From assembly GCA_963813075.1 (NCBI GenBank), contig CAWEXU010000013.1, positions 128,001 to 192,000 of the forward strand: a DNA stretch of 64,000 bases, written 5' to 3'. The position numbers were made by a program, and so were the translations under genes. Every line of letters starts with the position of its first letter. Position 1 is the stretch's first letter. Source of the DNA: Methanotrichaceae archaeon. GTDB lineage: Archaea > Halobacteriota > Methanosarcinia > Methanotrichales > Methanotrichaceae. The notes beneath the pieces were generated by a model. It was given only the letters and a program-made list of their open reading frames with translations. It had not been told where the DNA came from and ran no database searches. This document shows, piece by piece, positions 1,300-51,322 of the stretch.

Positions 1300-1303
1300 G
1301 GAT

Positions 1304-7390: not shown

Positions 7391-7454
7391 GTGTAGGGAT
7401 GGCTGTGTAGGGATGACTGTGTAGGGATGACTGTGCAGGGATGGCTGATAGGGA
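7391..7454. repeat. 14-bp tandem repeat (GTGTAGGGATG[G/A]CT), about 4.5 copies
   Basis: gtgtagggatggctgtgtagggatgactgtgtagggatgactgtgcagggatggctgataggga. Confidence 0.85.
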
Positions 7455-7509
7455 TAAGCAATGGTCGTGGCTGAGAAATTATATATCGCTTCCAGCCATA
7501 TCATCCTTG

Positions 7510-8406: not shown

Positions 8407-8424
8407 ATTATTGAGGATGAGCAA

Positions 8425-12819: not shown

Positions 12820-13060
12820 TTGAAAACGTCTCCTTCTAAGGTATGTCCTAGCGATATTAGGACTGAAGTACGACATTTATCGAATATAAACTTTCGTCCC
12901 CCTTTCATAGATTACCAAATGGGGGACTCAAGATTACCCATGCAAAACAGCCAAGGGCCTGAAAACGCGGCAAAATCAACCGCCGATTGACGATAAATAA
13001 AGGACGCCCGTTCCCCGTCCCCCTTCCAGGCCATTCACCGCAGCCACCCCGTCTATCCCG

Positions 13061-29500: not shown

Positions 29501-30196
29501 AGGCAGGTTGACCGCCTCAAGGAAATGGTAATCCTCTGGGACGTCGAAGTGAACCTTGCCAAAAACCACGTTCGGGGTAAAGCGGGCCTGCTGGGAAACA
29601 TCGATGATCATATCATCTTTGCCCAGCGGGTAGACGTTAAACGCAACGCTACTGGCGACAAACTCTTTGCTGCGGGTCAGCTCCTTGAATCGGGCCAGCG
29701 CATGGGTCAGGTCATACGACAGGTAGCCAGCCTGATCGCTGGCCAATGTGCCCAGTGGATAGGTGTACAGTGTTATTTTGTTCGGCTGCGAGCTGGTGGG
29801 AACCTGAAAATGATCCAGCCGGTCTTTGACGATGTCTCTGACCAGGCGTTTCTTATTTTCCTCGGTTTCGGAATTGACCCAATTTCCCTGGATTTTTTCG
29901 AGGATGTCAATATAAAATGCTCGCTTGTCTGGAATATTATTGAAATCCTCCTCTGTAACGCTGGCAGCAATGGCTTCATTAATCCACTGCAATAGATAGG
30001 TGCGGCTGGAATACCACTGGCGGATCGAAGATTCATTCTCCAAAAATTCGATCGGCTCGTCGATGTTGTACGGCGGCTCTTCGGTGGTGATACTGATTTC
30101 GGCGTAGATAGGGATGTTTTTCAGTAAAACGCTGGTGGTTTTGGTAAATAAAACCAGGCTCAGGTGGGTTTGCGTGAACTCCGCAATCGTGGGCAT
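26522..30196 (-). CDS. Large hypothetical protein (~1224 aa), candidate pore-forming/toxin-like
   Basis: Uninterrupted ORF; GGAGGA sits just upstream of MPTIAEF (30196). Motifs YSLPLAPGETRKMAVIDW, VANHNHSHTLTILYYEVLRHY and LPTRGVFAEGKLG..DDTRFWDWQ. Function is inference only. Confidence 0.75.
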   Translation of the reverse strand: MPTIAEFTQTHLSLVLFTKTTSVLLKNIPIYAEISITTEEPPYNIDEPIEFLENESSIRQWYSSRTYLLQWINEAIAASVTEEDFNNIPDKRAFYIDILEKIQGNWVNSETEENKKRLVRDIVKDRLDHFQVPTSSQPNKITLYTYPLGTLASDQAGYLSYDLTHALARFKELTRSKEFVASSVAFNVYPLGKDDMIIDVSQQARFTPNVVFGKVHFDVPEDYHFLEAVNLPSMQNPSLEDWYLSPGSFAVNPAFFIGVDGCENLYPANFATHEFRFFQILRGSKIIIPAETRDEESQVGNQVITKKILVKPEVRTGWSLEYLVSWQPLGHTLGQIIYSLPLAPGETRKMAVIDWARKSIDSRDEDLTVKEQLAHNTHRDRSVSETVDAALREWQRGGSFMGGVAGSYGGGGMGVSGALGGGYSTSSGDRNIHASTAQQISDAFAQASSAVRELRSTIVVQSDQQEQAKAETRVVANHNHSHTLTILYYEVLRHYKVTTQYMRFRPSLLVQYLPVDFLDTNIIYKYRKILESVLLDSRYAGCFDAVQKLVCFTLEFARKTAQAALQPDLNNVNELGPIKLVIKTKTATHGFPSVAVKTKSGERINCLEKDPLWASGFRLAHTDLSLPDFVDDGTTYLVSANYRQAGQENVFNVEPFRKVLWNDIDGIILRVNSQDKGSSSGPSEPWEIEGVQIMTTSGDKVWVMVRSTDVINIPVDAEHLFNLIPYREIPKDPADLLTEAERCCINDLKSHLSANAFHYQKALWLLEDPNERAYRFKDVVSSGTSILDMIDNRAIDVLGDYVVFPARKSFQENEDLNALQPIKVEKLMTLPTRGVFAEGKLGHCNISEEIDDTRFWDWQTSPITEEAPGIDNLNINESRNVSQNLTPTPMPASIVNIVAPQNLPDPTGMAGALNLLGKADIFRDMSVSKEVEDLLEKLADKSVDINQASNKAKEIQQQHKASKNANTPVVVSQPAQQQPSQKTISPAEAQQQIKVSENQAVKGTITKQDNNENVKKAIQQMQGGKAGSDVTVTINFKHSISGPLNGVFNIEFIGPIGDSFTTSTAGGVGAGKVNIQTGAEYTIQIKGTRTRLPLSLDTIARIPSVAGNPAFNIDLSNHVTKREVPIEANIVATITKGRKAINITIVAEEVAKDIKITVKVTGSGTLKADLEGQLGLNLDGLDLGHIKAGTAVETTVGGEAAVELPVEFKRLTGNVTAPKNDLAL

Positions 30197-30828
30197 ATAA
30201 GTTCCTCCATAGATATCGGTTGATTGAGGCTCTTCCAAAATTGCGTCATTTGACGTATTCAGACCACCATATGCAGTGGTTTCCCAAAGAATGTCACACA
30301 TGATGCGCAATTTTGCAACTGGCCCGTTTTTCCAATTTGTGTGATCACTTCCGTTGTCCGAACTTAGAGCAGACAGTTTTCTCTTGTCGAAGCCGAAGTT
30401 CGGCATGCTGCCGTAGTCCAAGCCTAAGCCGTCGTCTTTTTCCTAATTTCTTTTATTCCCTTTTCGCATGGCTATGGCGGTGGATGATCATTGTCAAACC
30501 CTCAGCGGCGCGGCGTCGCAGCATCTGCTGGAAGGTCTAGTGGGGATTCTGACCCTCAATACATCTACATTTGATACTATTCCATAGATTTAAAGCTATT
30601 TATAAGTATTTAAGAGGACTCCTATGAACCTACTTTCCTTAGCTATCGAAAAATTATATAATAATAAAACTATCCATTAAAATGAATTTGCTAACAGCTC
30701 GGGGCCTCCGAGATGCCCAGAGAGCTTCAGAAGTCCTGCAATAATAAAGTTAAATTTGATTGTCGGTATTTATAAGTAATATAAAAGCTATATAATGATT
30801 AATCAAGCAAAAGTTGTGGAGGCTACAT

Positions 30829-32784
30829 ATGACAAATACGGCAATCAAGCTCATGGGGCTGATTGTTCTCTTATCCTGCAGCTGCCAGTCGGCTTATGGC
30901 ATAAGCTTTGGGGCATCGAGCAATGGCGTATCGAACCAGTTCGATGTACAGGCTGATGAATCATCCAGCATCAGCGGAAGTATACTACTGGACAACATGG
31001 GATTGGAGACAGTCTTTTCTGGAAGCAATATCAAGAAGTTCAACCATACTTATGAGTATCCCGATTCAGAAGGGAATAAGGCTATTTTATCGGTTGACCT
31101 GGAGAAGGCAAAGAAAGTTCATCTCTCCGTTTCTCCAGCCGTGGGCTTTGCCGAAGCCTCTGAGACCTTGAGCGTAAAGGATGCAGATTTGATAAAGGCT
31201 GGATCACAAGCCATTACCTCAGAGGGCGATAGCGCTAAGGTGGAACTGAAAATTATTGAAGGATCTCTTCAGGGATACGAGAACTATGCCAATGCTAACC
31301 TGATAAACGACTTTGGCGATAGGGTATTTGTCGCCTGGCAGAGGGCAGATATTGCTTCTGGAGAGATGGTTGAATCCAGCTCACAGGCCGCTTATGGCCC
31401 AGAAGACTCTTCCCTTCCACCTGTATCCCAGGTAAATTCTAAGATGGTGGTGACAGACGGACAAATCAGTGATCTATTCAGTGAAGCGGGAAGACGTACG
31501 GCTTTCTATTCCTGGGATAATGAAAACAATAACGGGTTTAGTACCTATAATCAGATATATGCAAGCCAATCTGCAAGTGCCATAGGCGCAACCGCACGCA
31601 TGGGTAAAAAGCCCTCAACAATTGCGATGGTCTTTAAATCAGAGACTTCCTCCATTGATTCAGAGGGGAATACTGCAGGACTAAGAACATCAGTGCTGGA
31701 GGGGACCATTAACAATTACAGCATTGAGGCCTATGTAGGTTCGCAAGTACGCTCAATTTTGTCCTCTGATGGTTCCTACAGCAATCATGAACTCGATAAT
31801 TACACGTCTACATGGCAGAATACGGGCAATATATCTTCAAATGAATTCAAGACGCAAGTGATCGCTGCGGAAAAAGATAAAAATACCGCCATGCTGGAAA
31901 CATCTTTAATAAACGGTACAGTCAACGGTTACAGCAATGGAGCCGGTGCAGACTCAAGTTACCATTATAATTCTAACGGCTATTTTGAGGCCGCAAGAAA
32001 TGCAAATGCAGATTGGTCTGCTGCGGATGCAGATGCAAGCGATTTTAAAACATTTATGTCCGCTGAGAACGCTGATGGTGATAGAGACATCCTAATGAAT
32101 TCCTTGATTGATGGTGCATTCAATGATCTTTGGAGCAGCAGAATACAGGCATCCACTTATTCATATTTTAATCCGGAAGAGGGTTTCCATAAGCATAAAG
32201 AATTAAGCTCAGAGCAGATTATTGGAGCCTTAAACGCAGGCAGTCTCACAAGCTCTTTGATCGCTTCAGGTACAAATAAAAGCAAGTCGATAGCCAGTTT
32301 AAATGCATCGGATGCATATCTGGAGAACCTATATTCACATAGCATAGTCTCAAATGATGACCCTTACGAAGTCCCAAATACTGAAACCTATAATCAAGCG
32401 GATTTTATCTCCGGAAGCCTGATAGAAGCATTGTCTTATTCTCGAGATCAGATGAACAATGCTACATATGCAGCCATGCGACTGGAGGGCACTGATGATG
32501 CAGATGGATCGACTGCAGTGTATCGCCAAATTGCCCTGACCGCTGGTCCAACTTTCGAGTACTATCCAATCACATTAAGCTGGATAATATCCGTAGAATC
32601 AGCTTCAGGAAACGGAACATTCTATGCTGGGGCCACTGATGGAATGGCAACGAGGAAGCTTATGGTGAGCACAATCCTCGAAAACGAGACATTCACCACC
32701 TTCGGGAGAGTGAGAGACAGCAGTCCTGGCACTTACTTTAGCATACCGGATACGGGGGTCGATCCATATAACTATATTTTTTAA
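30829..32784 (+). CDS. Secreted Ser/Asn-rich protein with internal repeats
   Basis: Signal peptide MTNTAIKLMGLIVLLSCSCQSAYG; recurring block (S/A)EG(D/N)xAxLxxxxxEGxxxxY. Confidence 0.75.
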   Translation: MTNTAIKLMGLIVLLSCSCQSAYGISFGASSNGVSNQFDVQADESSSISGSILLDNMGLETVFSGSNIKKFNHTYEYPDSEGNKAILSVDLEKAKKVHLSVSPAVGFAEASETLSVKDADLIKAGSQAITSEGDSAKVELKIIEGSLQGYENYANANLINDFGDRVFVAWQRADIASGEMVESSSQAAYGPEDSSLPPVSQVNSKMVVTDGQISDLFSEAGRRTAFYSWDNENNNGFSTYNQIYASQSASAIGATARMGKKPSTIAMVFKSETSSIDSEGNTAGLRTSVLEGTINNYSIEAYVGSQVRSILSSDGSYSNHELDNYTSTWQNTGNISSNEFKTQVIAAEKDKNTAMLETSLINGTVNGYSNGAGADSSYHYNSNGYFEAARNANADWSAADADASDFKTFMSAENADGDRDILMNSLIDGAFNDLWSSRIQASTYSYFNPEEGFHKHKELSSEQIIGALNAGSLTSSLIASGTNKSKSIASLNASDAYLENLYSHSIVSNDDPYEVPNTETYNQADFISGSLIEALSYSRDQMNNATYAAMRLEGTDDADGSTAVYRQIALTAGPTFEYYPITLSWIISVESASGNGTFYAGATDGMATRKLMVSTILENETFTTFGRVRDSSPGTYFSIPDTGVDPYNYIF

Positions 32785-37366: not shown

Positions 37367-40126
37367 ATGTCGGAAATTAGACTCACCATTGATGGTCAGG
37401 AGGTAGTGGTTCCAGAGGGTTCTAGCATTCTTGATGCCTGCCGGAAAGCGGATTCATATGTGCCGGCGCTCTGCGATCATCCCGACCTCGAAGCCCATAG
37501 GCTCCTGCAAGCTCTGCATAGTCTCGGTAGAGGGGATGGACGGCTATCCCACTGCCTGCAACACCCCGGCAGTTGAGGGAATGGTGGTGCAGACGGTGAC
37601 CGAGGAGCTGCAGGATATGAGAAGGCACACCCTGGAGATGATCCTCGCTCTAACCAACCATCCCATCAGCTGCCTGGTCTGCGAGAGGAAGAACGAATGC
37701 GGTGACCTGCGCGAGTGCATGAGAAAGTTCCCGGTCACTGTGGGCTGCAAGTACTGCCCCAAAGACGGCGAATGCGAGCTGCAAAGGGCAGTGGAGTTCG
37801 TGGGCCTGGAGAGGGTCCGATACCAGATCTCCTTCAAAGACAGGCCAGTCTTGAGAGAGCCTTTTTTCGATCGCAACTACAACCTCTGCATCCTGTGCGG
37901 CCGGTGCGTGCGCGTCTGCCAGGAGGTCAGAGGGGAGGGAGTGCTATCGACCAACCCAGATTTCCACCGCTTGCACTGGATAGGCCCCGAATCGCTGCAG
38001 GACTCAAGACTGCAAGTTCTGCGGGGCATGCGTGGACATCTGCCCTACCGGAGCCCTTTACGCCCGGTTTGAGAAGTGGCAGAGGCCGGAGAGGACCACG
38101 GATACCATCTGCCCCTACTGCGGTGTGGGCTGCCGGATAGAGGTGGGAGTGCAGGATGAGAGAGTGGTGAGGGTGAGGGCCAAGAGGGACTGTTACCCCA
38201 ATTTCGGCCAGCTCTGCGTCAAAGGCCGCTTCGGCCTGGGATTTGTGGATAGCCCGGAGCGCCTCACCGTCCCCCTCATCCGGAAGGACGGCAGGCTTGA
38301 GCCGATAACCTGGGAGGAAGCCCTCAGTATCCTGACCGAGAAGCTGAACCAGTACAAGGGAGACTGTTTTGCATTCCTGTCGTCGGCCAAGTGCACCAAC
38401 GAGGAGAACTATCTGGCCCAGAAGTTCGCCAGGCTGGTGATGCAGACCAACAATGTGGATCACTGCGCCCGGCTCTGCCATGCCTCTACCGTATCCGCCC
38501 TGGCCCTGGCTTTCGGCAGCGGCGCTATGACCAATTCCATCTCTGAGCTTCCCGATGCCGGCTGCATATTCATCATCGGCTCGAACACCTCTGAGCAGCA
38601 TCCAGTGATCGCCCTGAAGATCAAGGAGGCCAAAAGAAGAGGGGCGAAGATAATCGTGGCCAACCCCCGCTGGATCGACCTGTGCAAGATCGCTGACGTC
38701 TGGCTGCGCCAGACCCCGGGAACGGATGTGGCTCTGGCCCTGGAGATGTGCCGGGTGATCCTGGAGGAGGGGCTAATGGACGAGGAGTTCATCTCCCAGA
38801 GGACGGAGGGATTCGAGGAGTTCAAAAATTCCCTTCTTCAGCTATCCGGAGATGACGCAGCAAAGATCACCGGCATCAGCTCTGATCTGATCCGGGAGGC
38901 GGCGAGGATCTATGCCCGGGGCAATCCCTCTTCCATCATCTATGCCATGGGGATCACCCAGCACTCTCATGGGGTGGAGAACATCTTCGCCCTGGCCAAC
39001 CTGGCCATGATGACCGGGAACGTGGGCCGGCCATCTTCCGGCATCAACCCCCTGCGGGGCCAGAACAATGTGCAGGGCTCCTGCGACATGGGAGCCCTTC
39101 CCAATGTATTCCCTGCCTACCAGGCGGTGACCAATCCCAGATCTGCGCCAGAAGTTCGAAGAGGCCTGGGGAAGTGTCCAGCCTATTCCGGAAAATCCTG
39201 GCCTCACGGTGGTGGAGATGATGAACGCTGCCCATGAGGGAAGTATCAGGGCGATGTACATCATGGGCGAGAATCCGGTTGTGAGCGATCCGGACAGCAG
39301 CCACGTGGTAGAGGCCCTGAAGTCGCTGGAATTTCTGGTGGTGCAGGACATCTTCCTCTCCGAGACTGCAGCTCTGGCGGACCTGGTCCTGCCGGCGACG
39401 AGCAGCCTGGAGAAGGACGGGACATTCACCAACACCGAGCGGCGGGTGCAGAGGATCAGAGAGGCCCTGCATCCAGTGGGCGAGTCCAGACCGGATTGGG
39501 TAATACTGTGCGATCTGGCCGCCCGGATGGGCTACAAAGAGCAGTTCAGCTACGTTGATCCCGGCCAGATCATGGCCGAGGCAGCCAGGCTCTCACCCAG
39601 CTACGGCGGCATCAGCTACGACCGGCTGGAGAAAGACGGCCTGCAGTGGCCCTGCCCCAATCCCGATCATCCTGGGACCCAGTTTCTGCATAAGGGCCAG
39701 TTCACCCGCGGCCGGGGCAAGTTCAATGTGGTCGACTACCGGCCGTCGATGGAGCTGCCGGACGAGGAGTATCCGTTCATCCTCACCACCGGAAGGATTC
39801 TGTGCCATTACCACACCGGGACCATGACCCGGAAGGTGAATGACCTCAATGTTCTCCGGGACGAGGAGCTATTGGAGATCAATCCACAGGATGCCCGAAA
39901 TCTTGGGATCGAGGATGGCGAATTGGTAGATGTGACCAGCCGGCGGGGCAAGGTTCGGGTTAAGGCCAGGGCCACGGAGAAGTCCCCGGTAGGAGTGGTG
40001 TTCATGACCTTCCACTTCTCTGAGACCCCCACCAATGTCCTCACCAATCCCGCTCTGGATCCGATAGCCAAGATCCCGGAGCTGAAGGTCTGTGCCGTGA
40101 AGCTAGATAAAGTTCGAGGAGGCTAG
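37367..40126 (+). CDS. fdhA: Formate dehydrogenase alpha subunit (Cys-type) with N-terminal [2Fe-2S]/[4Fe-4S] domains; three frameshifts (~37490, ~38005, ~39140)
   Basis: ITIDG-like start..GSCKLC..TACNT; CILCGRCVRVC; CPYCGVGC..LCVKG; NNVDHCARLCHAST; PLRGQNNVQG; GTFTNTERR; LTTGR..HYHTGTMT. Confidence 0.9.
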
Positions 40127-41252: not shown

Positions 41253-41612
41253 TCATTTGATCCTCTTCGATGGGTCAGTGCTATCCATCATCAAGTTTGC
41301 CTTGAGCAATAGGAGGGCGGTGAGGACCTGAGCGTATTCGGCCATTCGCATGACATCGCCATCGTAATCGGAGAATTTGATGCTGGAGACCTCTGCTCCG
41401 GAGGGCTTTTTGGTTTCTGCATACTCCTTGAAAGCTTCAACCTGGCTCTCCTTGCCATCAATTACGATATCGACCACCTGATTCTTGCCATCGGTCAGGT
41501 TGCTGGCATCGAATCCCGGCAGGTGCAAGCCCATGGCTCCGCCCAGCAGGAGATACCTGTAGCCCACATCGTGCACCCTGGGGCCGGTGATGGTAATCCT
41601 GAGCTTCATCAT
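41253..41612 (-). CDS. Acylphosphatase-like protein
   Basis: ITGPRVHDVGYR..FDASN; divergent acylphosphatase fold. Confidence 0.7.
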   Translation of the reverse strand: MMKLRITITGPRVHDVGYRYLLLGGAMGLHLPGFDASNLTDGKNQVVDIVIDGKESQVEAFKEYAETKKPSGAEVSSIKFSDYDGDVMRMAEYAQVLTALLLLKANLMMDSTDPSKRIK

Positions 41613-41859
41613 GGAGATATTAGGTCTGTTCTGGATTATAGTCTCTGCCCTTCCCAGGATTGGCTTTGATCGTGAGCCTGGTCAGAAGACTCCGAAATGT
41701 TTTTATCTGTATAATACTTAAATATGTATATTCCTGCAGTGCGAAGGGCGCCGTATGAACAGCTCAAGGAGACAACATAACGATCGAAATCTACTTCGCT
41801 TCGATTTGATAGGTTAACAGCAGAGGTTAGTTATATTTGAAAATACTATTTTGATTGCG

Positions 41860-42096
41860 ATGAAGGTCCTAAAGTACCACGTTATGCTGAGATGGGAACC
41901 GGAAGATGAGGTTTATACCGCATGGGTTCCATCACTTCCGGGATGCGTTACCTTTGGAAAGACCATTGATGAGGCCCTCGATATGGCAAGAGATGCTATT
42001 GAGGGCTATGTGCAGATATTGATTGCTCATGGCGAAGAAGTCCCAACCGACGAAGATATCATTGATCGCACTGTAGAGATCGTTGCCCATGCCTAA
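41860..42096 (+). CDS. hicB: HicB-family antitoxin (short form, no obvious DNA-binding domain)
   Basis: YTAWVPSLPGCVTFGKTIDEALDMARDAIEGY..GEEVP. Confidence 0.92.
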   Translation: MKVLKYHVMLRWEPEDEVYTAWVPSLPGCVTFGKTIDEALDMARDAIEGYVQILIAHGEEVPTDEDIIDRTVEIVAHA

Positions 42097-42313
42097 GCTG
42101 CCTTCGGTCTCTTCTCAGGAGCTTGCCAAAGCTTTGGAGAAGGCAGGTTTTATTCTTGAGCGGACCACGGGAAGCCACAGCATCTATTACCATCCACAAA
42201 CCCGCAGGAAAGCGGTTGTACCCATTCACAGTAAAGATGTTCCGAAGGGAACGTTGTGCAAGCTTTTGAAGGAAGCTGGAATTAGTAAGGAAGAGCTAAC
42301 GGATCTGCTATAG
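42089..42313 (+). CDS. hicA: HicA-family mRNA interferase toxin
   Basis: LEKAGF..RTTGSH..VPIHSKDVPKGTL..LLKEAGI; overlaps the hicB stop. Confidence 0.92.
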   Translation: MPKLPSVSSQELAKALEKAGFILERTTGSHSIYYHPQTRRKAVVPIHSKDVPKGTLCKLLKEAGISKEELTDLL

Positions 42314-42566
42314 GCATTATTGCCATAAGTTTGCAGTAGCTCTTTCTGTTCCGATGAACCGGGCTTAAAGAGGTCCGGTCTGCCTATGGCTACGGATCGG
42401 CTAAAAAGAGCGGTTGCAGTGCTGCTCGTAAAGATGCCAAAATGTTTTTATCTGTATAATACCTAAATATCTTCATTGTTTGTTATCTTTAATCCGAGCC
42501 TGAATGCCAGCCCTGCATAGCCGAGGCCTTTCGCAATCGAGCTGACAGCAATTAGGCGTGATAAAA

Positions 42567-44700
42567 ATGAGCGGAAAAACAGGCGACCTGTTCGCCCTCC
42601 TGATAGGAATAGACTGCTATCTGCCCAATAGGCTCCCAGGCGGATACTACTACTCCAATCTCGGCGGCTGCGTGAGGGATGTGGATAATGTTCACCGCGA
42701 TCTTCTGCAAAGAAGGCTGAATATACCAGAAAGCAATGTGATCAAGCTCACATCGACCGCCTCCGCTGCAGGTCAGCCACTTGAGCCCCAGGATCTGTGG
42801 CCCACATATGAGAATATGGTGACGGCATTCAAGAAGATTGCCGATATGGCCAGCCCGGGCGATCAGGTCTATATCCACTATGCCGGCCACGGCGGCAGGA
42901 CCTGCGACCATCGATCAGAGGCACAAAGGAGAGTACGGAATCGATGAGGCACTGGTGCCCATGGATATCGGCAACACCGAGGCCAGATACCTGCGAGATA
43001 TAGAGCTGGCCAAGCTCCTCAATGACATGGCCAAAAAGGGGCTCATAGTTACCGCTGTCCTGGATAGTTGCCACTCCGGGGGCATGGTCCGGGGCCGGAA
43101 TGCCGTGTCCGGTAATGTGGCAGTTCGGGGCCTGAGCATCGTTGACACCACCCCTCGCCCAACTGAGAGCCTGGTTGCACCTCTAGAAGAGCTGATTGGC
43201 AACTGGGATGATCTTGGGGGTGGATTTGGCCCCACACGCAAACTGGCTGTAGGTAGCGGCTGGCTTCCCGTGCCCAGGGGTTTTGTCCTTTTGGCCGCAT
43301 GCCGGCCCTCTGAGTCCGCTCTGGAGTACGACTTCGATGGAAAGGAGAGGAACGGCGTCCTGACCTACAACCTTCTCCGATCCCTGGACGACCTGGGACC
43401 GGGCTTGAGCTACAAGACCCTCTACGACCGGATAGTCTCCAGGGTCCATAGCAAATTCAGAGAGCAGACACCACTCCTGGAGGGCGATGGCGACAGGGAG
43501 GTCTTCGGGAGCGAGAGGATCTCTCCCTATTATGCGGTCAATGTTATGGAATACGATGCAGCGGGCAATAGAGTTCTCCTTGACGCCGGCCAGGCTCATG
43601 GCCTGCGCAAGGGCGCTCAGTTCCGCATCTATCCTTCTGGAAGTGCCGATCTCTCCGTCATGAAAAGGGGCCTGGCCCTGACGGAGATCACAGAGCTTGG
43701 GGAGACTGAGTCCTGGGCTAAAATAGTTGATCAATTCAGGGATGCGGCCATAGAGCAGGGGGCGCAGGCAGTCCTGCTGGCAGCCAATTCCCTCGACCTG
43801 GTCAGCATGATCCATTTGTATCAGCGCCGCGATCTGAGCCCGTCCATCGATCAGGCCCGGTTCCTGGAGGCGGTGGGCAAGGTGGCAGAAGAGAACAGAT
43901 GGCTCAAGTTCGTCTCTGAAAAAGAGAGGATAGACTACCAGGTAGCAGTCAACGATGATGGCTACTATGAGATCTGGGATCCATCGGGCAGGAAGATCGA
44001 GAATCTCAGGCCGGATCTTTTGGCTGGAGAGGCCGGGGCCGCTGCGGAGGTGGTCCGCCGCCTGGAGCACATGACCCGGTTCAATGCAGCCAGAGAGCTG
44101 AGAAACCATGATCCCACATCTCCTCTGGCCAGAAAGCTCATCGTCGAGTTCGTGGGCAAAGAGGATAGCGACTACGATCCGGTAAACGAGGCCCATCCCA
44201 AGGCCTTTGACAATCCAATGCTGCCCGAGGTGAACAACGGAGAATGGGCTATTGTGAGGATAAAGAATGGCTTTCCAGAGCATCAGCCGAATAACGTCCT
44301 GAACATCACCGTCCTTGGCCTTCAGCCGGATTGGGGCATCACTCAGATATACCCATCAGGTGCTGCTGAGTGGTTTGTCCCTCTTGATCCAGGAATGGAA
44401 GTTCTCCTTCCCCTTCAATCCATTCTGCCCGAGGGCTATACCGAAGGTATCGATACCATCAAGGTCTTTGCCACCCTTGGAGAGAGTACCACGAACTTCC
44501 AGTGGCTGCAGCTGCCTTCCCTGGACCAGCCTCCCAGAAGGGCGACGACGAGGGGCGAGAGTCCAAAAGATCCCCTGGAGGAGATGATGGTGGCGATAAC
44601 CTCGGAATTGCCCACCATGAGAACTCTGGAGCCAGCCCGTTATCCCAGCAAGGTCTGGACCACTGCTCAGATTGAGCTGAGGACTAAAAGCATAAAATAG
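42567..44700 (+). CDS. Caspase-family (C14) protease with a long C-terminal extension (frameshift near 42900)
   Basis: FALLIGIDCY, LGGCVRDV, HYAGHG (His) in the first frame; EALVPMD, LDSCHSGG (Cys), LAAC..E..G.LT in the second. Confidence 0.88.
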
Positions 44701-44737
44701 AATAGACGCATTATAGAATAGTGCAGGAGAAGAAAAA

Positions 44738-46433
44738 ATGCCAGACGATAGTATTTCTCGTAATCTCCGCCTGCCGAATACTGTAATTAGCCCAGCAGGC
44801 CCCCAGGCATATTACGAGAAGAGCTGGGCTTTGGTCATTGGCATTAATGATTACGAAGGCATGCGTCTGGGAAATGCCAGGAACGATGCTGAGGCGGTTG
44901 CTGCTCTCTTGAAAGAGAAATACGGCTTTGATGAGGTCATCTCTCTGCTGGACAAGGACGCCAGCCGGGAAAATATCCTCCGTTATCTGAGGGAAGATCT
45001 CCGGGATCGGGTTGGTGCTGAGGACAGGCTGATAATCTTCTTTGCTGGACACGGTGAGAGTCAGCCCAGCAAAGGCGGTGGGAGGATTGGCTATATCATC
45101 CCCCAGGATGCCCGAAAGGACACCTCGATTGATCACATCGATATGGATGAGCTGAGAAAGGCCTGCGATAGAATCCCGGCCAAGCATATCCTGATAATTC
45201 TGGACTGCTGCTTCAGCGGAGTAGCAGCCATCACCTCCCGGATTCGAGGAAAGCCCGAGCAGTCTCCCAAAAAGCTCACTGATATGTATTTGCGCAAGCT
45301 CACTGAGAAGAAGTCCTATCAGATAATGACCGCAGGAGATGTGGATCAGCCCATAAGAGATAGTGGCTGTGTCCCTGGGCACTCCGCCTTCACCGCTGCA
45401 TTGCTCGATGGCCTGCGGGGAGATGCCGATCGAGATAATAATGGCCTGATCACAGCAACCGAGCTTTACGATTACATCCAGCCCAGAGTGTCCTGCGAGA
45501 CATCTGCAGACGGGGCGGAAGGCCAGATGCCCTTCCTTGATTATATAAAAGGCGTTGATATTTACCACCCTGGAAACTTCGTCTTCATGCTTCCCAATAT
45601 TATGGTAAGCAATGGAGATGAAGAGAGAAAGGATGGTATGCAAAGTGATGGGCAGAGAAAGGATGAGGTGCGAAGTGATGCCCTCTCCAGGAAGGTTGAG
45701 AATCGATATTCAAATGTGATTGAAAAGAGATTGCCTATTTTAGCGGCTGTGATCGTTTTGATTTTAGCTCTGGTTACAGTGAACTACTTCTATCCATTCT
45801 TCCCAGTTCCTCCTCCAGATGGCAATATAAATCAAATTCAAACCAACACTCCATATTCCCCTTCGGAAACATCTCCCCAGAAGCAGATGGACATGCCTGC
45901 AGACCTGGTTAATTCCTATTCCAGGATCAATAGCCTGGTTGAGAAAGCGTGAATTCGTAAATGCTTTAGATATTATAAATAATGTAATTGAAAAGTATCC
46001 GGAATACAATGAATACAATCTTCTTTTAAAGGGCTGGGCTTTAAACAAGAAGGGTTTTTACGAAATGCAGAGCAATTCGGAAGACGCCGACAATACATTT
46101 GCAGAGGCAATAGATGCATTGGAGCTGGCCTATGCGCTCGATCCTAAAAATGAAAAGGATCCGCCTAATGTATATATTTTAAATGAAAAAGGAAACGCCT
46201 ATCATTACATGGGCAAGTATGACCTGGCTATTGAGTGGAACAATGCAGCGATTGAAATGGACCCCAATATGGATTTTGTCTGGTTCGACCGAGGGCTCAT
46301 ATTTCTGGATCAGAAGAAATGCAAAGAGGCAATCGAAGCCTTTGATAGAGCCATTGAATTGAATCCAGATGATACGCAGAGCAAAGATCTGCGGGAAAGA
46401 GCTATCCAATGCGCTCAGGAGGCAGATTCCTAG
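44738..46433 (+). CDS. Caspase-family (C14) protease + TM helix + TPRs (probably one gene, frameshift near 45940)
   Basis: [54 protein letters not shown]; the TPR ORF 45939-46433 overlaps the first ORF's end. Confidence 0.8.
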
Positions 46434-46669
46434 ATCATACCGATCCTGGGCGGCTGATTTGCCGATTCTGCTACCCAGTAGCTGATCCGCTGCAACCGCA
46501 ACCCTTTTACATAATATCCCGGCAAGCATTGGCCACCATAGCGGGTGAAGCTGCAGAGCAGGTTTGGAGAGATGCTCCTAAAAGCTCCCTTTCAAGGCCA
46601 AAAAAACCTGAAAAGGAAATTGGATGCTCCTGGCCGGGACTGCACTCGCCCGTCCAGGAGGGAGAGATC

Positions 46670-47585
46670 ATATCATTCAAAGTTCCCGCTGATATCGCTA
46701 AGGCAGCCATAGCTGCCGGATGCACGAAATGCAATATGACCTGGCAGAAGCTGCTGGTGCTGGGCTTCCTCGCCGGGGCCTATATCGCCTTTGGAGCCCT
46801 TTTGAGCGAGATTGTGGCTGGAGGCCTATCGAATGGCACCATCACCGGCCCGGACGGCGAGATCTGGAAGATCGCTATCCCCGGGGGCCTGGTCAAGTTC
46901 GCCGCCGGAGCGGTCTTCCCCGTGGGCCTGATGCTGGTCGTGATCGCCGGATCGGAGCTGTTTACCGGCAACTGCATGTTCGCCCCCATCAGCGTCCTGA
47001 ACGGCGAGGCGAGCTTCCGGGGCCTGGTGAAGAACTGGTCGCTTGGTCTACGTGGGCAACCTGGTGGGATCGGTCTTCGTCGCCTACTTCCTGGCTTACC
47101 AGTGCGGCTTGTTCGACAGCCTCCCCTGGGCGGGCTGGGCGGCAACTGTGGCCAACACCAAATGCGGCCTGGACTTCGGCACCGCCTTCCTGCGGGGGAT
47201 CGGCTGCAACTGGCTGGTCTGCCTCGCCGTCTGGCTGGCCATCAGCTCTGAGGACATAATTAGCAAGATCTTCTCCTGCTGGTTCCCCATCATGGCCTTC
47301 GTGACCATCGGCTTTGAGCACAGCGTGGCCAATATGTTCTTCATTCCCCTGGGCATCTTCGCCGCTAATGATCCGGCCATTGCTGCAGAACTTGGCTCGG
47401 CGAGCGTGGCCACGACAAACCTTGTCGGCGGAGCAGGATGGTACAACTTCTTCATCACCAACCTGATCCCGGTCACTTTGGGCAACATCGTCGGAGCGGC
47501 CCTGTTCGTGGCGGCACTCTACTGGTATGTCTATCTGAGGGGGCCAGTCTGCGTAATAAAAGAGGAGAAGCCGACAAAGAGATGA
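46670..47585 (+). CDS. Formate/nitrite transporter (FdhC/FocA family), frameshift near 47042
   Basis: [50 protein letters not shown] and VTLGNIVG motifs. Confidence 0.92.
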
Positions 47586-47670: not shown

Positions 47671-48973
47671 CTACTCCGTCCAGTCCAGGACCGCCAGCCA
47701 GTCGAAGTCGGTGAAGCTCTCCGGCCCCAGGGGGAAGTAGGTGGGATTCTTCGCGCTCCCGGACCGGCGGGGGAGGGAGGCGATCTCATCTGCAGGAAGC
47801 CCCTGACCTTTGAAGGTAGGGATGAGTCGCGCCGGTCCGGCTGAGGCGGTCAGCCGCGCCTCCAGGGTACGGTCCTCGGGTCTTCCGATGCCATTGGCAT
47901 CTGACATCCCAACTGCTGTCCCTATGACTGCATAGCCTGGGCCCAGGATCTGGTCCAGGTGCGAGCCCGCCGGCCACCAGGAATAAAGGTCATCCAGATA
48001 TTGCCATTCGGCCCGACCTCGCTGTAGATGGCGGTTATGGGCGAAGGCCAGCACCCGTCCTCCTCCGCAGCCCTCCCGGGATGCTATGTAGGCCAGGTTT
48101 TCCGCCATCATGACATCACGAATGCCAAGCAGCCTGCTCGTCCGGTCGGTCGAGTTGCCGGCAAGCTCGGCATGATAGCTGAGCTGTTGCCGGGCAAGGG
48201 CAGCATAATGCACCGCCTCATGATAGCGAGCGCTATCGCTTCTGGCCACCAGCTCGGGCCTGCGAACGAGCAGCTCCTCATTCAGATCCTCCGTTTCTGC
48301 TCGCAGGGCGACCGCGTTGGGAGAGCGGCCAACGGACTTGGCCGGATCGATCAGATGCATCTGGATTATCCCAATCGGAGTCCTGGCCCAGGAGCGGATC
48401 GATCCTTTGCCGGTGCTGCTCGCACTGGGCAGTGTCGATTGAGCCCAGGTAGTCCAGGACGAAATGCACCAGCTGCTTTGGGCTGTCGCTGCCCATCATC
48501 TCCGTCGGGCTGTCAAAGCCGTAGAAATGGAGCTTGTGGGGATGAGACGGATCGGCATTGTACTCTTTCATCCACTCCACCAGCTCTCGATTGGCATCGA
48601 TGCGGCCAAAGCCGTGGCTGAATCCCTACTCCAGGATTTCGTCGTATGATTCCGGGCCCAGGCCGGCGATATACTCGTCCACCAGCCGGCCGCGGGGAAA
48701 GCTGCTCTCAATGGCGATGGCCGCAAAGCCGTGCTTTTCCACCAGGCGAATGAAAAGCCGGTTGCGCAAGAGGAGGATGTCGCGGCTTCCGTGGAGGGCC
48801 TCTCCCAAGCCCAGGAGCCTCACTGAGCCTCCTATCCTGGTCATCGCCTCGTCTATGGCATAGTTGAGCGTTTCTATTGAATCAAGAGAGAACGGGACCG
48901 CCTTGGCATTGATCCATTCGTCAAGGGTGGCATACTCTGGCTCAAGGCCGTTTTTTCGAGATGATCTGACCAT
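47671..48973 (-). pseudogene. Erythromycin esterase family protein, with an in-frame TAG at 48626 and a frameshift near 48355
   Basis: LGLGEALHG, AIAIES, HFYGFD, RDVMMAEN and AFAHNRHL motifs spread over three fragments. Confidence 0.8.
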
Positions 48974-49100
48974 TAAAAAGAACCTCCGGCATATCAGGAT
49001 TACACATCGATATCATAAAGTGGATGTCATGAAGGCGGTTATTCTTTATGGTAATTGAACCCGAATGACACAAAATAAGAACCATATCACAAATCAAGCA

Positions 49101-49769: not shown

Positions 49770-51196
49770 TCACTTCTTTTTTTTCTTGCTGAAGAATTCG
49801 ATCGCCTCGGCCAGTTCCCTGTGATCCTTCGCATAGTCCGCGATGTCGATCTTCTTTATGTAGGCCTCGCATGCCTGCACCAGGGCCATCGCACCGGCGC
49901 GTGTTCCTCTCGGGTGAGCGTGGCAACCGGCGCCCATGGTTGTGATGAAATCGACTCCGCCCATGACATCGATGAAAGGCTCGAGAAGCGTCGGGTTCAG
50001 TCCTCCAGAGATGATCGGGCAGCATTTCTTGAGGCCGCGCCAGGAGTCGTCCTCCAGGACAACCTGGTGAGCATCGTCCATCTCCACCATCTTGATGGCA
50101 TCCTCGTCCTGCGGCGGGATCCTTCCCCAGTTCTGGGTGAAGAAGTGACCTTTGCCCTCGACTTTCAGGATGTTCCTCGCCGCAGTTACGTCCTCCTCGG
50201 GGCTGCCTGCCATCTTGCCGACGCCTGCCGTCCCGGTGTGGATACCTGATGCGCCTGCCAGCCTGGCAAACTTCGAGAGCACGAGCACCGAGAAGCCGAT
50301 GGGGTTCTCGGTCTGGTAAAGCCACCGTGGCCCGCCCGGTGGAAGTGCAAAAAGACATCCGGATACCTCCGCCTGAGCGTCTGGACCGCCATCCACCCGG
50401 CGGTGATGCCGTCTATGAGGAAAGCGTACGAACCCGGCTCGAAGCCCGCCTCCCTGATCATCTCACACCTTTCGATCATGGTGTCGAAATCGGCTGAGGA
50501 TACATTGAACGAGTGGACCTTCTTCTTCCCCGTCTCCTTGACTGCCTTGTCCATGGCCATCTTGACATACTTGACCATCTTGTCGTAGGGGCAGAAGTCC
50601 TGGTCGGCTTGGGGCTCGTCGTTCTTGACGAAGTCGCCTCCGCCCACCCAGAAGTCGTAGCAGACCTCGGCGTACTCAGACGAGGTGAGTCCCATCTTGG
50701 GCTTGATTATGGTCCCCAGTATCGGCCTGTCGTGCACATTGAGGTAGTTTCTCATGTCGTCGAGTGTGTAGCTTGGGCCGTCGTACTGCTCCAGCATGGA
50801 CGGGGGGAACCAGATGTCCAGGAGCTTGAGAGCCTTGATCTCCTTCATGCCCAGGGCGTTCCCGGCAATGTAGGTCATGATGTTCTGGACGTTGCCGTTC
50901 CTATCGAACAGGCGCCAGGGATAGGCGATCCAGACCAGGTTCTTCTCGATGTCCACCTTGTAGACCAGGGCGTTCATCACCCTTGAGAAGGGAGTCTCGG
51001 TCTTCACGGGAAAATTGGTGCCTGTTGAGCTCTCGGATGCGACCTCGGCGGCGGCTTGCATGATGTTGAGCTCGCCGCCGGGGATCAGGTGAAAGACGGC
51101 CAGAAGATACTCGCCGTTCCTCGGATCAGGAAGGTCCATCCTCGTGTACTGGACCTGCTTTGGGTTGAGCGTTTTTAGGAGTTCTTCTTGAATCAT
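49770..51196 (-). CDS. rbcL: RuBisCO large subunit, form II/III type (frameshift near 50312)
   Basis: ASESSTGT, GTIIKPKMGL, GGDFVKNDE, HFHRAGHG, HTGTAGVGKM, PIISGG and HAHPRG motifs, with an insertion before SWRG. Confidence 0.92.
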
Positions 51197-51322
51197 TGAA
51201 AAAACCTTCCGGTTCTGCATACAGGCCATTGCATATATTTGTTTGTCATCTAATCCAAAAAATCGGGCCGCTACTTTCAGCAGATGGATTTTCCAATACA
51301 AAGCATTCTGCGGGCGAAAGAA

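What the first reader, a model, noticed from the sequence alone, without database searches (positions are those of the whole stretch)
42567..46433. Tandem caspase pair: a soluble multidomain caspase plus a receptor-like caspase-TM-TPR, directly behind a toxin-antitoxin module
Seen: two co-directional C14 genes 37 nt apart, both with an intact His-Gly/Asp-x-Cys dyad (HYAGHG/DSCHSG and FAGHG/DCCFSG). The second has an N-terminal protease, one TM helix, a Pro-rich stalk and TPRs on the other side of the membrane. The first has Arg-Gly motifs in probable linkers (MVRG, AVRG, TTRG), and the second has IRG after its Cys; these may be processing sites. Known: prokaryotic caspase homologs activate death effectors in several defence systems. 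Inference: a trans-membrane sensing protease cascade (external TPR sensor, initiator, executioner) in a methanogen. The substrate is unknown; HicB, the 1224-aa protein and the pseudo-CHAT protein are speculative candidates. This is my best candidate for an undescribed system in the window.
Basis: partly seen in the sequence, partly recalled or inferred. Interest (0 to 1): 0.78.

Follow-up and report, generated by a model that had tools for sequence, protein, structure and literature searches.

The report
Caspase pair in Methanothrix accessory island
Two caspase-like protease genes lie side by side in a small accessory island of a Methanothrix genome; they likely act as a membrane sensor protease and a soluble executioner protease, a design already known from bacterial defence systems.

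Summary
Window 42567-44700 and 44738-46433 encode two co-directional Peptidase_C14 genes 37 nt apart, each with an intact His/Cys dyad. Both frameshifts are single extra bases that are missing from every public contig laid across them (3 DNA studies, 1 RNA library), and close relatives are intact, so they are most likely assembly errors.

Casp1 belongs to a widespread ~700-aa family: a metacaspase-like domain plus a conserved ~390-aa beta-barrel/Ig-like module. By residue numbering this family very probably includes the orthocaspase MaOC1. In 78 loci from many phyla its neighbours are strongly enriched for a second caspase/CHAT protease fused to sensors (nSTAND1-TM-WD40, TPR).

Casp2 is a caspase-TM-TPR protein of that sensor-linked class.

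Two Methanothrix relatives carry a CHAT-like-nSTAND1-TM-WD40 gene in front of casp1. The window has lost it through a 2.9-kb deletion, which is why casp1 now follows HicBA. The ~5.3-kb island is missing from 3 of 3 related genomes examined.

The best reading is a horizontally acquired sensor-protease/executioner-protease module, conceptually like SAVED-CHAT/PCaspase. It is a new variant of a known kind, and the cascade itself is inferred, not shown.

The parts
41253..41612 (-). Acylphosphatase-like gene, the first gene of the accessory island
   Evidence: Pfam Acylphosphatase E 3e-11. It is absent between the PyrK-like gene and FocA in 3 of 3 related genomes examined.
41686..41732 (+). Copy 1 of a 47-nt AT-rich direct repeat upstream of hicB (promoter-like; that role is inferred)
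   Evidence: the repeat finder family D1, 85% identical to copy 2; sequence read.
41851..42096 (+). HicB-like antitoxin gene
   Evidence: Pfam HicB_lk_antitox E 5e-12.
42083..42313 (+). HicA toxin gene
   Evidence: Pfam HicA_toxin E 2e-19.
42431..42477 (+). Copy 2 of the 47-nt repeat. In G077 it lies just upstream of the STAND gene; here it lies about 90 nt upstream of casp1.
   Evidence: L015 2458-2504.
42484..42552 (+). Remnant (last 23 codons) of a deleted CHAT-like-nSTAND1-TM-WD40 gene; deletion junction at about 42497
   Evidence: tblastn gives 78% identity to residues 939-961 of the G077 protein. blastn shows the window lacks L015 2525-5399, i.e. 2875 bp.
42567..44700 (+). casp1: soluble orthocaspase of the MaOC1-like family, made of a metacaspase-like domain and a conserved C-terminal module. 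One extra base near 42901-42904 breaks the frame in this assembly.
43084..43242 (+). Linker after the catalytic Cys carrying conserved Arg sites: MVRG 43084-95, AVRG 43120-31, PTRK 43231-42. The last aligns with Arg219, the reported MaOC1 autoprocessing site.
   Evidence: Alignment A1: R175/G176 and R187/G188 nearly invariant, R224 invariant. AF2 pLDDT is below 50 at residues 170-181 and 220-230. Numbering in the Microcystis member; coordinates.
43519..44697 (+). casp1 C-terminal module (393 aa): an N-terminal beta-barrel, an alpha/beta middle part and an Ig-like beta-sandwich. No Pfam family covers it.
   Evidence: AF2 model pLDDT 89.7, pTM 0.78. VIA-align: FlgT C-terminal domain Z 10.1, ATPase N-terminal barrels Z 9-9.8, Ig-like folds Z 7-8. 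phmmer finds 733 representatives, almost always placed behind a caspase domain.
44738..46433 (+). casp2: caspase domain, one TM helix (45731-45802), a Pro-rich stretch (45803-23) and TPRs (from about 45945). One extra base at 45943/45944 breaks the frame in this assembly.

Best explanation
The region holds two C14 protease genes with intact catalytic dyads: a soluble MaOC1-like orthocaspase (casp1) and a membrane-anchored caspase with predicted external TPRs (casp2). They likely work as the executioner and a sensor-linked initiator of a proteolytic growth-arrest/defence cascade.

Shown:
- Both genes are intact in other samples and in close relatives.
- They lie in a ~5.3-kb accessory island inserted between a PyrK-like gene and focA.
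- The casp1 family is spread patchily over many bacterial phyla, Nitrososphaerota and Methanotrichaceae.
- Casp1 is preferentially encoded next to, and sometimes fused with, a second caspase/CHAT protease that carries sensor modules.
- In two Methanothrix relatives a CHAT-like-nSTAND1-TM-WD40 gene directly precedes casp1. That gene is deleted in this window.

Inferred:
- A cue at or beyond the membrane activates the cytoplasmic protease domain of the sensor protein. Here that is casp2; in relatives the STAND protein as well.
- This protease cuts casp1 at conserved Arg residues in disordered linkers.
- Activated casp1, predicted to be Arg/Lys-specific, then degrades cellular proteins and stops growth of the infected or damaged cell in the filament.
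- The C-terminal beta-barrel/Ig-like module would act as a regulatory or docking part, not as an enzyme.
For: Gene integrity:
- One base is left out at 42901/42903/42904 and at 45943/45944 in all contigs across those sites in runs X1, X4 and X11, which come from 3 studies.
- The same is seen at 45944 in the RNA-library run X18.
- Intact relatives exist: P0002/P0003/P0004 for casp1 and P0121/P0122 for casp2.

Casp1 family:
- 760 hits at E<=1e-3, about 700 aa long, around 50% identical over the full length across phyla.
- More than 530 genomic loci.
- H108, C168 and R224 are invariant.
- The fold matches metacaspase 9/4 at E 1e-14. The best PDB sequence matches are metacaspases.

Neighbourhood, using my own HMMs on 78 loci:
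- The share of ORFs with a C14/CHAT domain falls with distance: 46/163 within 700 nt, 14/144 at 0.7-3 kb, 13/191 at 3-6 kb, 4/234 at 6-12 kb.
- nSTAND1 follows the same trend: 25/163, 11/144, 5/191, 6/234.
- 39 of 78 loci have a second protease gene within 700 nt, and 50 of 78 within 3 kb.
- Pfam on 55 of the 69 adjacent neighbours shows C14/CHAT-nSTAND1-WD40, TPR-CHAT, caspase-TIR, caspase-nSTAND2 and CHAT-SIR2 architectures.

Fusions of the casp1 unit: CHAT, nSTAND1, Trypco1/Pepco, metallophosphoesterase, patatin, serpin and protein kinase.

Receptor-like partners: 7 caspase/CHAT-nSTAND1 partners have a TM helix, preceded by a basic stretch, in front of the WD40 part. Casp2 has the same layout.

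Casp2 protease domain: about 50% identical to caspases fused to nSTAND1, FGE-sulfatase, S8 and EAD domains. Its nearest NCBIfam model is 'caspase, EACC1-associated type'.

Methanothrix synteny and deletion. Island absent in 3 of 3 relatives examined.

Precedents read: SAVED-CHAT cleaves and activates PCaspase (bioRxiv 10.1101/2023.06.23.546230, passages). Protease-gated effectors are widespread in defence (PMC12642450, sections 3, 4, 8).

PADLOC: its 'caspase' model matches P0003 over residues 8-678 at E 4e-34.
Against: - No cleavage, binding or phenotype was tested, and the complex predictor was unavailable.
- The literal casp1-casp2 pair recurs in only 1 of 100 other Methanotrichaceae genomes searched, G077.
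- G066 keeps casp1 and the STAND gene without casp2, so casp2 is dispensable for casp1.
- 17 of 78 loci show no protease or nSTAND1 gene within 3 kb, though many of those contigs are short.
- MaOC1 is reported to autoprocess without a partner (review PMC7475262, passages).
- In this window the STAND gene, the best-conserved partner, is deleted, so the module may be crippled.
- Genomes rich in caspases and WD40 genes (filamentous cyanobacteria make up 40 of 61 tree rows) inflate chance adjacency. The distance gradient argues against chance but is not an independent-lineage test.
- The C-terminal module matches only common folds.
- Transcription evidence is weak: a few contigs in RNA libraries.
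Confidence: 0.5

Rival explanations
1. The two proteases are independent. Both genes merely share a defence or accessory island. Each protease self-activates and has its own substrates, and casp2 does not act on casp1.
For: MaOC1 autoprocesses at Arg219 without a partner (PMC7475262, passages). G066 has casp1 without casp2. Caspase-TM-sensor proteins occur in other systems with other partners, such as EACC1 (PMC7159879, section 33). Casp2-like caspase domains carry many different C-terminal domains.
Against: Second proteases are strongly enriched with proximity to casp1, and direct casp1-CHAT fusions exist. The 37-nt spacing and shared orientation are conserved in G077.
Confidence: 0.2
2. The caspase is coupled to the toxin-antitoxin pair. 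Casp1 (or casp2) would cleave the HicB antitoxin and free HicA, as MaOC1 does with a ParD-like antitoxin.
For: MaOC1 cleaves the antitoxin of an adjacent TA pair that is fenced by direct repeats (PMC7935541, abstract and passages). Here HicBA lies directly upstream and is fenced by a 47-nt direct repeat. HicBA belongs to the same accessory island and accompanies casp1 in G077 and G066.
Against: The adjacency is secondary to a 2.9-kb deletion. Only 1 TA-like protein (PIN, in Microcystis) was found among 81 small ORFs within 3 kb of casp1 in 50 loci; ORFs under 80 aa were not called, so this test is weak. The three Methanothrix genomes are syntenic kin, not independent cases.
Confidence: 0.08
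3. The proteases have a non-defence role: regulated proteolysis in filament or sheath development, or in envelope stress signalling, rather than immunity.
For: The family is concentrated in filamentous or multicellular prokaryotes: cyanobacteria, Chloroflexota, Methanothrix. The external TPR/WD40 domains could sense envelope or neighbour-cell cues. No phage-sensing domain was identified.
Against: The distribution is patchy, 3 of 100 family genomes. Placement in the tree looks like horizontal transfer. The gene sits in an accessory island. It associates with STAND, TIR, SIR2, Pepco and patatin modules typical of conflict systems. PADLOC 'caspase' matches it.
Confidence: 0.12
4. The locus is a decaying remnant. 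In this strain it is non-functional because the sensor STAND gene is deleted and the two frameshifts are real.
For: The STAND gene is reduced to 23 codons. Both caspase genes are out of frame in the assembly. One run holds a contig with the deletion form: X8 record 25 spans 42400-42725.
Against: No laid contig carries either extra base. Housekeeping genes in the window are broken in the same way: FdhA in three frames, FocA, RuBisCO. That points to assembly error. Apart from the single extra base, each gene shows no other internal stop and stays full-length relative to its intact relatives: casp1 is 79% identical to P0003 over residues 112-709, and the casp2 N-terminal piece is 97% identical to P0121 at 100% query coverage.
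Confidence: 0.1

Closest known systems
MaOC1 orthocaspase of Microcystis aeruginosa PCC 7806 (Klemencic et al.; PMC7935541 abstract and passages, PMC7475262 passages)
   Same: Casp1 shares full-length architecture with a 698-aa Microcystis ichthyoblabe member of the family. That member has Cys at 169 and Arg at 219, the residues named for MaOC1 (C169A mutant, autocleavage at Arg219 leaving about 55 kDa). Arg219 aligns with the family-invariant Arg. A toxin-antitoxin pair fenced by direct repeats lies next to the gene in both cases.
   Different: The MaOC1 sequence itself was not in hand, so membership is inferred from numbering. Casp1 is archaeal, about 43% identical, and sits beside HicBA rather than ParDE. 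The orthocaspase papers I read do not describe a partner protease.
SAVED-CHAT / PCaspase cascade of the Haliangium ochraceum type III-B CRISPR locus (bioRxiv 10.1101/2023.06.23.546230, passages)
   Same: Two caspase-superfamily proteases sit in one cluster. A sensor-linked one cleaves and activates a second, broadly acting one. This is the same logic proposed here.
   Different: The sensor there is a cA3-binding SAVED domain with no membrane part and is CRISPR/CBASS-linked. Here the sensors are TM-TPR or nSTAND1-TM-WD40. Sequence relatedness of casp1 to PCaspase (H79/C146) was not tested.
EACC1-caspase two-gene system ('System 4', Kaur et al. 2020, PMC7159879 section 33; EACC1 cleavage in PMC12642450 passages)
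   Same: The 3' gene encodes an N-terminal caspase, often followed by a TM helix and variable, sometimes extracellular, C-terminal domains. The best NCBIfam hit for casp2 is 'caspase, EACC1-associated type'. The 5' gene product is the protease's target.
   Different: There is no EACC1 gene here, and the 5' gene is casp1. The NCBIfam score of 91 is below the cut-off of 140.
Caspase/CHAT-STAND (nSTAND1) conflict-system proteins (Kaur et al. 2020; the Pfam nSTAND1 family)
   Same: The usual partner of the casp1 family, and the gene preceding casp1 in G077 and G066, has this architecture.
   Different: That gene is deleted in the window. A TM helix between NTPase and WD40 was seen in 7 partners; among the papers I read I saw it mentioned only as 'transmembrane STAND ATPases' (PMC12642450 section 8).
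Eukaryotic type II metacaspases and the MALT1 paracaspase (PDB 8a53, 9n3d, 6w8s, 4i1p)
   Same: These are the best structural and sequence matches of the casp1 protease domain. MALT1 also has an Ig-like domain behind its caspase domain.
   Different: Only the N-terminal ~315 residues match. The 390-aa C-terminal module has no counterpart.

Membership tests
Peptidase C14 (caspase superfamily, metacaspase-like branch) | Pfam PF00656 match above the gathering score | tested here: met
   Casp1 halves score 29 and 33 bits, the intact relative P0003 scores 69 bits, and casp2 scores 76 bits, against a cut-off of 21.4.
Peptidase C14 (caspase superfamily, metacaspase-like branch) | Catalytic His-Cys dyad present | tested here: met
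   HYAGHG/DSCHSG in casp1 and FFAGHG/LDCCFSG in casp2. The His and Cys columns are invariant in alignments A1 and A3.
Peptidase C14 (caspase superfamily, metacaspase-like branch) | Caspase/hemoglobinase fold | tested here: met
   The AF2 model of P0003 matches metacaspase 9/4 by Foldseek at E 1e-14, TM(target) 0.63-0.67. Casp2 was not modelled.
Peptidase C14 (caspase superfamily, metacaspase-like branch) | Cleavage after Arg/Lys (acidic S1 pocket) | not testable with these tools
   The Asp two residues before the Cys (D166 in casp1, D156 in casp2) and the Asp in the CVRD / NARND motifs are invariant. Their S1-pocket role is recalled from metacaspase structures, not tested.
MaOC1-type orthocaspase family | About 700 aa: caspase domain plus the conserved ~390-aa C-terminal module | tested here: met
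   Full-length hits at 48-57% identity. The C-terminal module is found in 733 representatives, nearly always at about residues 310-700.
MaOC1-type orthocaspase family | Conserved Arg at the reported autoprocessing site (Arg219 of MaOC1) | tested here: met
   Invariant R224 in A1, corresponding to PTR|K at 43231-42. R219 in the 698-aa Microcystis member.
MaOC1-type orthocaspase family | MaOC1 (IPF_1068) itself clusters with the family | tested here: inconclusive
   Shown only through a Microcystis ichthyoblabe homologue whose residue numbers fit the published ones. The 2015 paper is not held.
SAVED-CHAT/PCaspase-like two-protease cascade | Two caspase-superfamily protease genes in one cluster, one of them fused to a sensor | tested here: met
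   Casp1 plus casp2 (TM-TPR). In G077 a CHAT-like-nSTAND1-TM-WD40 gene as well.
SAVED-CHAT/PCaspase-like two-protease cascade | SAVED sensor and cyclic-oligonucleotide signalling genes | tested here: not met
   No SAVED, cyclase or CRISPR genes appeared among the ORFs scanned in window 19.9-64 kb or among the partners scanned.
SAVED-CHAT/PCaspase-like two-protease cascade | [quoted passage not shown] | not testable with these tools
SAVED-CHAT/PCaspase-like two-protease cascade | Casp1 is homologous to PCaspase (Hoch_1323) beyond the C14 domain | not tested
EACC1-caspase system (System 4) | A 5' gene encoding EACC1 | tested here: not met
   The 5' gene is casp1. No EACC1 hit in Pfam, and the casp1 family has no TM helix.
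EACC1-caspase system (System 4) | A caspase of the EACC1-associated type (NCBIfam NF047832 at or above its cut-off) | tested here: not met
   91.2 bits against a cut-off of 140.
HicAB type II toxin-antitoxin | Adjacent HicB-like and HicA genes | tested here: met
   Pfam E 5e-12 and 2e-19; the two genes overlap by 14 nt.
nSTAND1 STAND-NTPase partner | An nSTAND1 gene next to casp1 | tested here: not met
   It is deleted in the window and only 23 codons remain. It is present in G077 and G066.

The most novel reading that the evidence does not exclude
MaOC1-type orthocaspases, whose cellular role has stayed open since 2015, are the executioner half of a widespread two-protease cascade. Its initiators are single-pass membrane receptors with a cytoplasmic caspase/CHAT domain (with or without a STAND NTPase) and extracytoplasmic WD40 or TPR sensors. 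The cell would read a cue outside the membrane and answer with intracellular proteolysis. Methanothrix acquired this module horizontally, giving a receptor-driven caspase cascade in an archaeon.
Probability: 0.3. Interest if true: 0.7.

Novelty: new variant of a known kind. Interest (0 to 1): 0.5.

Why it matters
Caspase homologues are rare in archaea: 93 of 11,208 prokaryotic p20 sequences in the 2019 survey (PMC6426788, passages). Their roles in prokaryotes are mostly unknown.

If the reading is right, three things follow:
- The founding orthocaspase family gets a testable place as the second protease of a sensor-driven cascade.
- Many of the sensors appear to be membrane receptors with external repeat domains.
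- Such a module has moved into Methanothrix, a key filamentous methanogen of digesters and sediments, where regulated cell death or virus defence could affect granule and filament stability.

It also shows that this assembly's frameshifts should not be read as pseudogenes.

Tried and rejected
- Complex prediction (casp1 family alignment with the casp2 protease domain) was never accepted. The queue was full and the other tries came too early (103, 110, 112, 116, 118, 119). No result exists.
- Loose ends at 42440/42470 first looked like alternative junctions. They are contigs of repeat copy 1 (41664-41742) partly laid on copy 2, so they were dropped as evidence.
- Pfam on the family at E<=1 gave only weak hits for the C-terminal module: FlgT_C in 16 of 30 members, DUF4384 in 2 of 30, MbtH in 4 of 30. 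The ESM Atlas pointed to a DUF4384 cluster (0.93), which is a lead only.
- Foldseek on the C-terminal model gave nothing convincing. VIA-align gave only common barrel and Ig-like folds, and residues 91-199 were barely tested.
- NCBIfam gave no hit for casp1. PADLOC gave none for HicA or HicB.
- The careful ML tree did not finish in two 300-s runs, so only the quick tree is used.
- The earlier-findings index was empty.
- The 2015 MaOC1 paper is not held. Literature searches for 'orthocaspase' from 2022 on and for caspase-cascade wording in PMC8195603 found no description of orthocaspase-STAND pairing. 'CATASP' gave nothing useful.
- RNA-library contigs are too few to claim expression or co-transcription.
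- I considered reading the frames through with a four-letter step and left it out, because intact relatives served instead.


Full report
**1. What is in the sequence**

Window 42.5-46.5 kb holds two co-directional gene pairs of fragments.
- Casp1 runs 42558-42947 in one frame and 42838-44700 in the next.
- Casp2 runs 44738-45952 and 45939-46433, again shifted by +1.

Pfam finds Peptidase_C14 in both halves of casp1 (E 1e-6 and 5e-8). It finds the same family in casp2 (E 5e-21), with TPR families in the casp2 tail (TPR_1 E 9e-18). HicB (41851-42096) and HicA (42083-42313) lie in front, and an acylphosphatase-like gene lies on the other strand at 41253-41612.

The casp1 stop (44698-44700) and the casp2 ATG (44738) are 37 nt apart, with GGAG just upstream of the ATG. 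The true casp1 start is the ATG at 42567, judged from the intact relatives.

The catalytic motifs are HYAGHG/DSCHSG in casp1 and FFAGHG/LDCCFSG in casp2.

**2. The frameshifts**

Public contigs were laid on the stretch.
- Every contig crossing the casp1 break in runs X1, X4 and X11 (three studies) lacks one base at 42901, 42903 or 42904.
- Every contig crossing the casp2 break lacks one base at 45943 or 45944.
- X8 does not cover either place.
- A contig of an RNA library (X18) also lacks the base at 45944.

Removing one base gives ...HYAGHGGRTATIDQRHKGE... and ...NSLVEKREF.... The first is exactly the sequence of the intact database relatives P0002 and P0003 (casp1). The second differs by a residue or two from P0121 (...SLVEKGEFI...) and P0122 (...SLVERREFV...), the intact casp2 relatives.

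Housekeeping genes in the window are broken in the same way: FdhA in three frames, FocA, RuBisCO and an esterase. A second caspase gene elsewhere in the genome is split as well. I therefore read both frameshifts as consensus errors of this assembly. The source reads themselves were not seen, so about one chance in ten remains that the frameshifts are real.

**3. Casp1**

The 598-aa unbroken part finds 760 proteins at E<=1e-3 among the 7999 candidates scored. Most are 690-720 aa and 48-57% identical over the whole length. Source names include Syntrophobacter, Thermodesulfobacteriota, KSB1, Blastocatellia, cyanobacteria and a Halobacteriota archaeon.

In a 30-member alignment the His, the Cys and an Arg 56 residues after the Cys are invariant. 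Two Arg-Gly pairs just after the Cys are nearly invariant.

By sequence the nearest solved proteins are metacaspases, and they match only the first ~220 residues. An AlphaFold model of the intact relative P0003 has pLDDT 81. It matches Arabidopsis metacaspase 9/4 over about 300 target residues (Foldseek E 1e-14). Its only very low-confidence stretches, apart from the first four residues, are 170-181 and 220-230, the loops that carry the conserved Arg residues.

The remaining ~390 residues were modelled from the window's own sequence with 61 aligned relatives (pLDDT 89.7, pTM 0.78). The model has three parts.
- An N-terminal beta-barrel resembles the FlgT C-terminal domain (Z 10.1, 82 residues aligned, rmsd 2.7) and the N-terminal barrels of rotary ATPases.
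- A middle alpha/beta part was hardly tested.
- A C-terminal Ig-like sandwich matches at Z 7-8, which is a common fold.

No enzyme or pore fold appeared. An exhaustive phmmer search finds this module in 733 cluster representatives, almost always at about residues 310-700 of ~700-aa proteins. It is therefore a family-specific appendage of this caspase.

**4. Link to MaOC1**

A 698-aa member from a Microcystis chromosome has Cys at position 169 and Arg at 219. The papers I read state that MaOC1 of M. aeruginosa is killed by C169A and autoprocesses at Arg219, leaving a 55-kDa piece (PMC7935541 passages; PMC7475262 passages).

Arg219 aligns with the invariant Arg of the family, which is PTR|K at 43231-43242 in the window. 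This makes it very probable, though not proven, that casp1 belongs to the family of the founding orthocaspase. The MaOC1 sequence and the 2015 paper were not available.

**5. Neighbours of the family**

Of these, 530 encode relatives, and the best 80 loci were kept.

Among the 822 ORFs called in them, the only widely shared neighbour cluster was a large caspase/CHAT/WD40/TPR/STAND cluster, present in all 80 loci. The next cluster occurred in 7 loci.

Pfam on 55 of the 69 cluster members lying within 700 nt of casp1 showed these architectures:
- C14- or CHAT-nSTAND1-WD40 proteins of 1200-1900 aa, usually directly downstream and co-directional
- TPR-CHAT proteins
- caspase-TIR, caspase-nSTAND2 and CHAT-SIR2 proteins
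- NACHT proteins

With HMMs of my own, the share of ORFs carrying a C14/CHAT domain falls with distance from casp1: 46/163 within 700 nt, 14/144 at 0.7-3 kb, 13/191 at 3-6 kb and 4/234 at 6-12 kb. nSTAND1 shows the same gradient. A second protease gene lies within 700 nt in 39 of 78 loci and within 3 kb in 50 of 78.

The casp1 unit is also fused in single polypeptides to CHAT, nSTAND1, Trypco1/Pepco, metallophosphoesterase, patatin, serpin and a protein kinase. These partners match the protease-associated effectors, inhibitors and kinases described for bacterial defence modules (PMC12642450 sections 3, 4, 8; the PCaspase preprint, passages).

Caveats apply. The loci are dominated by filamentous cyanobacteria, kin are not independent, and 14 of the 69 neighbours were not scanned by Pfam.

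**6. Casp2**

Its intact form (P0121, 564 aa, 97% identical) and seven close homologues each have one strongly hydrophobic helix after the caspase domain. In P0121 there are 4 K/R in the 15 residues before the helix and none in the 15 after it. That predicts a cytoplasmic protease and an external C-terminal part, which is TPR in some homologues and unassigned in others.

The caspase domain is about 50% identical to caspases fused to nSTAND1, FGE-sulfatase, subtilase, EAD and VMAP-C domains. Its best NCBIfam model is 'caspase, EACC1-associated type', below the cut-off.

Kaur et al. 2020 describe such caspases with TM helices and extracellular domains in a two-gene system whose 5' gene is EACC1 (PMC7159879 section 33). 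Here the 5' gene is casp1.

The same receptor-like plan recurs among partners of casp1 elsewhere. Seven caspase/CHAT-nSTAND1 proteins carry a TM helix, preceded by a basic stretch, between the NTPase and the WD40 part.

**7. The Methanothrix context**

Record titles place the closest loci in Methanothrix/Methanotrichaceae. Casp1 was found in 3 of 100 other genomes of the family, all in the same genus.
- G077 has [CHAT-like-nSTAND1-TM-WD40, 961 aa] - 6 nt - casp1 - casp2 - FocA, with HicBA upstream.
- G066 has the STAND gene and casp1 but no casp2.
- G084 has a divergent casp1 next to a 1254-aa protein with three caspase-domain stretches.

The STAND protein keeps a His/Cys pair (FHYGGH, LNGCAT).

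In the window only its last 23 codons remain (42484-42552). blastn shows that 2875 bp are missing relative to G077, from 48 nt before the gene's start to 56 nt before its stop, with the junction near 42497. A 1196-nt contig of run X8 spans this junction.

A 47-nt AT-rich repeat lies upstream of hicB and again upstream of the (former) STAND gene. Casp1 now sits about 90 nt behind the second copy.

In 3 of 3 related genomes examined that lack casp1, the PyrK-like gene is followed directly by focA. The whole 41.1-46.5 kb block is therefore an accessory island: acylphosphatase-like gene, HicBA, STAND remnant, casp1 and casp2.

A quick ML tree of the C-terminal module puts the three Methanotrichaceae lineages in three separate places inside a mixed bacterial/Nitrososphaerota clade. 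The careful search did not finish. This is consistent with repeated horizontal acquisition.

**8. Mechanism**

Shown so far are the gene integrity, architectures, predicted topology, family-level linkage to sensor-bearing proteases, fusions, island status and the deletion.

Inferred is the following chain. A sensor-linked protease (casp2, and in relatives the STAND protein) is switched on by a cue at or beyond the membrane. It cuts casp1 in its disordered Arg-bearing linkers. Casp1 then acts as a broad Arg/Lys-directed executioner. This mirrors SAVED-CHAT activating PCaspase (preprint passages).

I give this about 0.5. Four rivals remain:
- independent proteases sharing an island (0.2)
- a developmental or envelope-stress role (0.12)
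- a decaying remnant (0.1)
- TA coupling through HicB cleavage (0.08). The MaOC1 precedent and the repeat-fenced HicBA make it attractive. Against it, the adjacency is secondary, and only 1 TA-like ORF was found among the 81 scanned of 90 small ORFs near the family. The 9 omitted were caspase/WD40 fragments, and ORFs under 80 aa were not called.

**9. Novelty**

The components and the logic are in print: orthocaspases, caspase-STAND conflict systems, caspase-TM-sensor proteins and two-protease cascades.

I did not find the following in the papers searched:
- an explicit pairing of the MaOC1-type family with sensor-linked proteases
- its receptor-like TM-STAND partners
- an archaeal casp1 + caspase-TM-TPR variant

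Evans et al. list 'PCaspase' among the most abundant protease-associated modules, which may already cover part of this. Supplements of the preprints were not seen. I rate the finding a new variant of a known kind, of moderate interest.

Noticed in passing
window 37431-40126, 46409-47585, 47671-49009, 49770-51301: FdhA (three frames), the formate transporter FocA, an erythromycin-esterase-like gene and RuBisCO are each split by frameshifts. The assembly seems error-prone, so the 82.8% completeness figure may be an underestimate.
   Followed up: partly
window 41686-41732 and 42431-42477: A 47-nt AT-rich direct repeat (85% identical) fences the HicBA pair. This recalls the repeat-fenced TA pair next to MaOC1. 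The second copy also precedes the STAND gene in G077.
   Followed up: partly
window 42497-42536; L015 1464-1503 and 5400-5439: The 40 nt at the 3' end of the STAND gene occur a second time in G077, upstream of HicBA (95% identical). This hints at earlier rearrangements in the island.
   Followed up: no
window 45617-45676: A 30-nt tandem duplication (77% identical) inside casp2, in the juxtamembrane linker just before the TM helix.
   Followed up: no
window 26522-30439 (-) and 30799-32781 (+): Two large ORFs (about 1305 and 661 aa) have no Pfam hit even at E 0.5 and no hit to my C14/CHAT/nSTAND1 HMMs.
   Followed up: partly
L014/L034 (G084:C106) 239-4024 / 5141-8902: A ~1254-aa Methanotrichaceae protein with three Peptidase_C14 stretches lies next to a divergent casp1 homologue.
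   Followed up: no
P0294, P0324, P0273, P0300, P0286, P0368: The casp1 unit occurs fused to Trypco1/Pepco (a protease-activated pore former according to PMC12642450), to a serpin, to patatin and to metallophosphoesterase domains.
   Followed up: partly
L131 (G049), L132 (G036), L133 (G091): The FdhA gene between the GltD-like and PyrK-like genes is variable. It is absent in G049, present once in G091 and in the window, and present twice in G036.
   Followed up: no
G000:C30:487045-487603 and C30:213643-214191: Two further Peptidase_C14 genes lie elsewhere in the genome. One of them is also split, and one has the caspase domain at the C-terminus of a 499-aa frame.
   Followed up: partly
L058 (Microcystis ichthyoblabe) 12323-13022: A PIN-domain (VapC-like) gene and an 88-aa ORF lie just downstream of the Microcystis casp1-family gene, and a TPR-CHAT gene lies upstream.
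   Followed up: no
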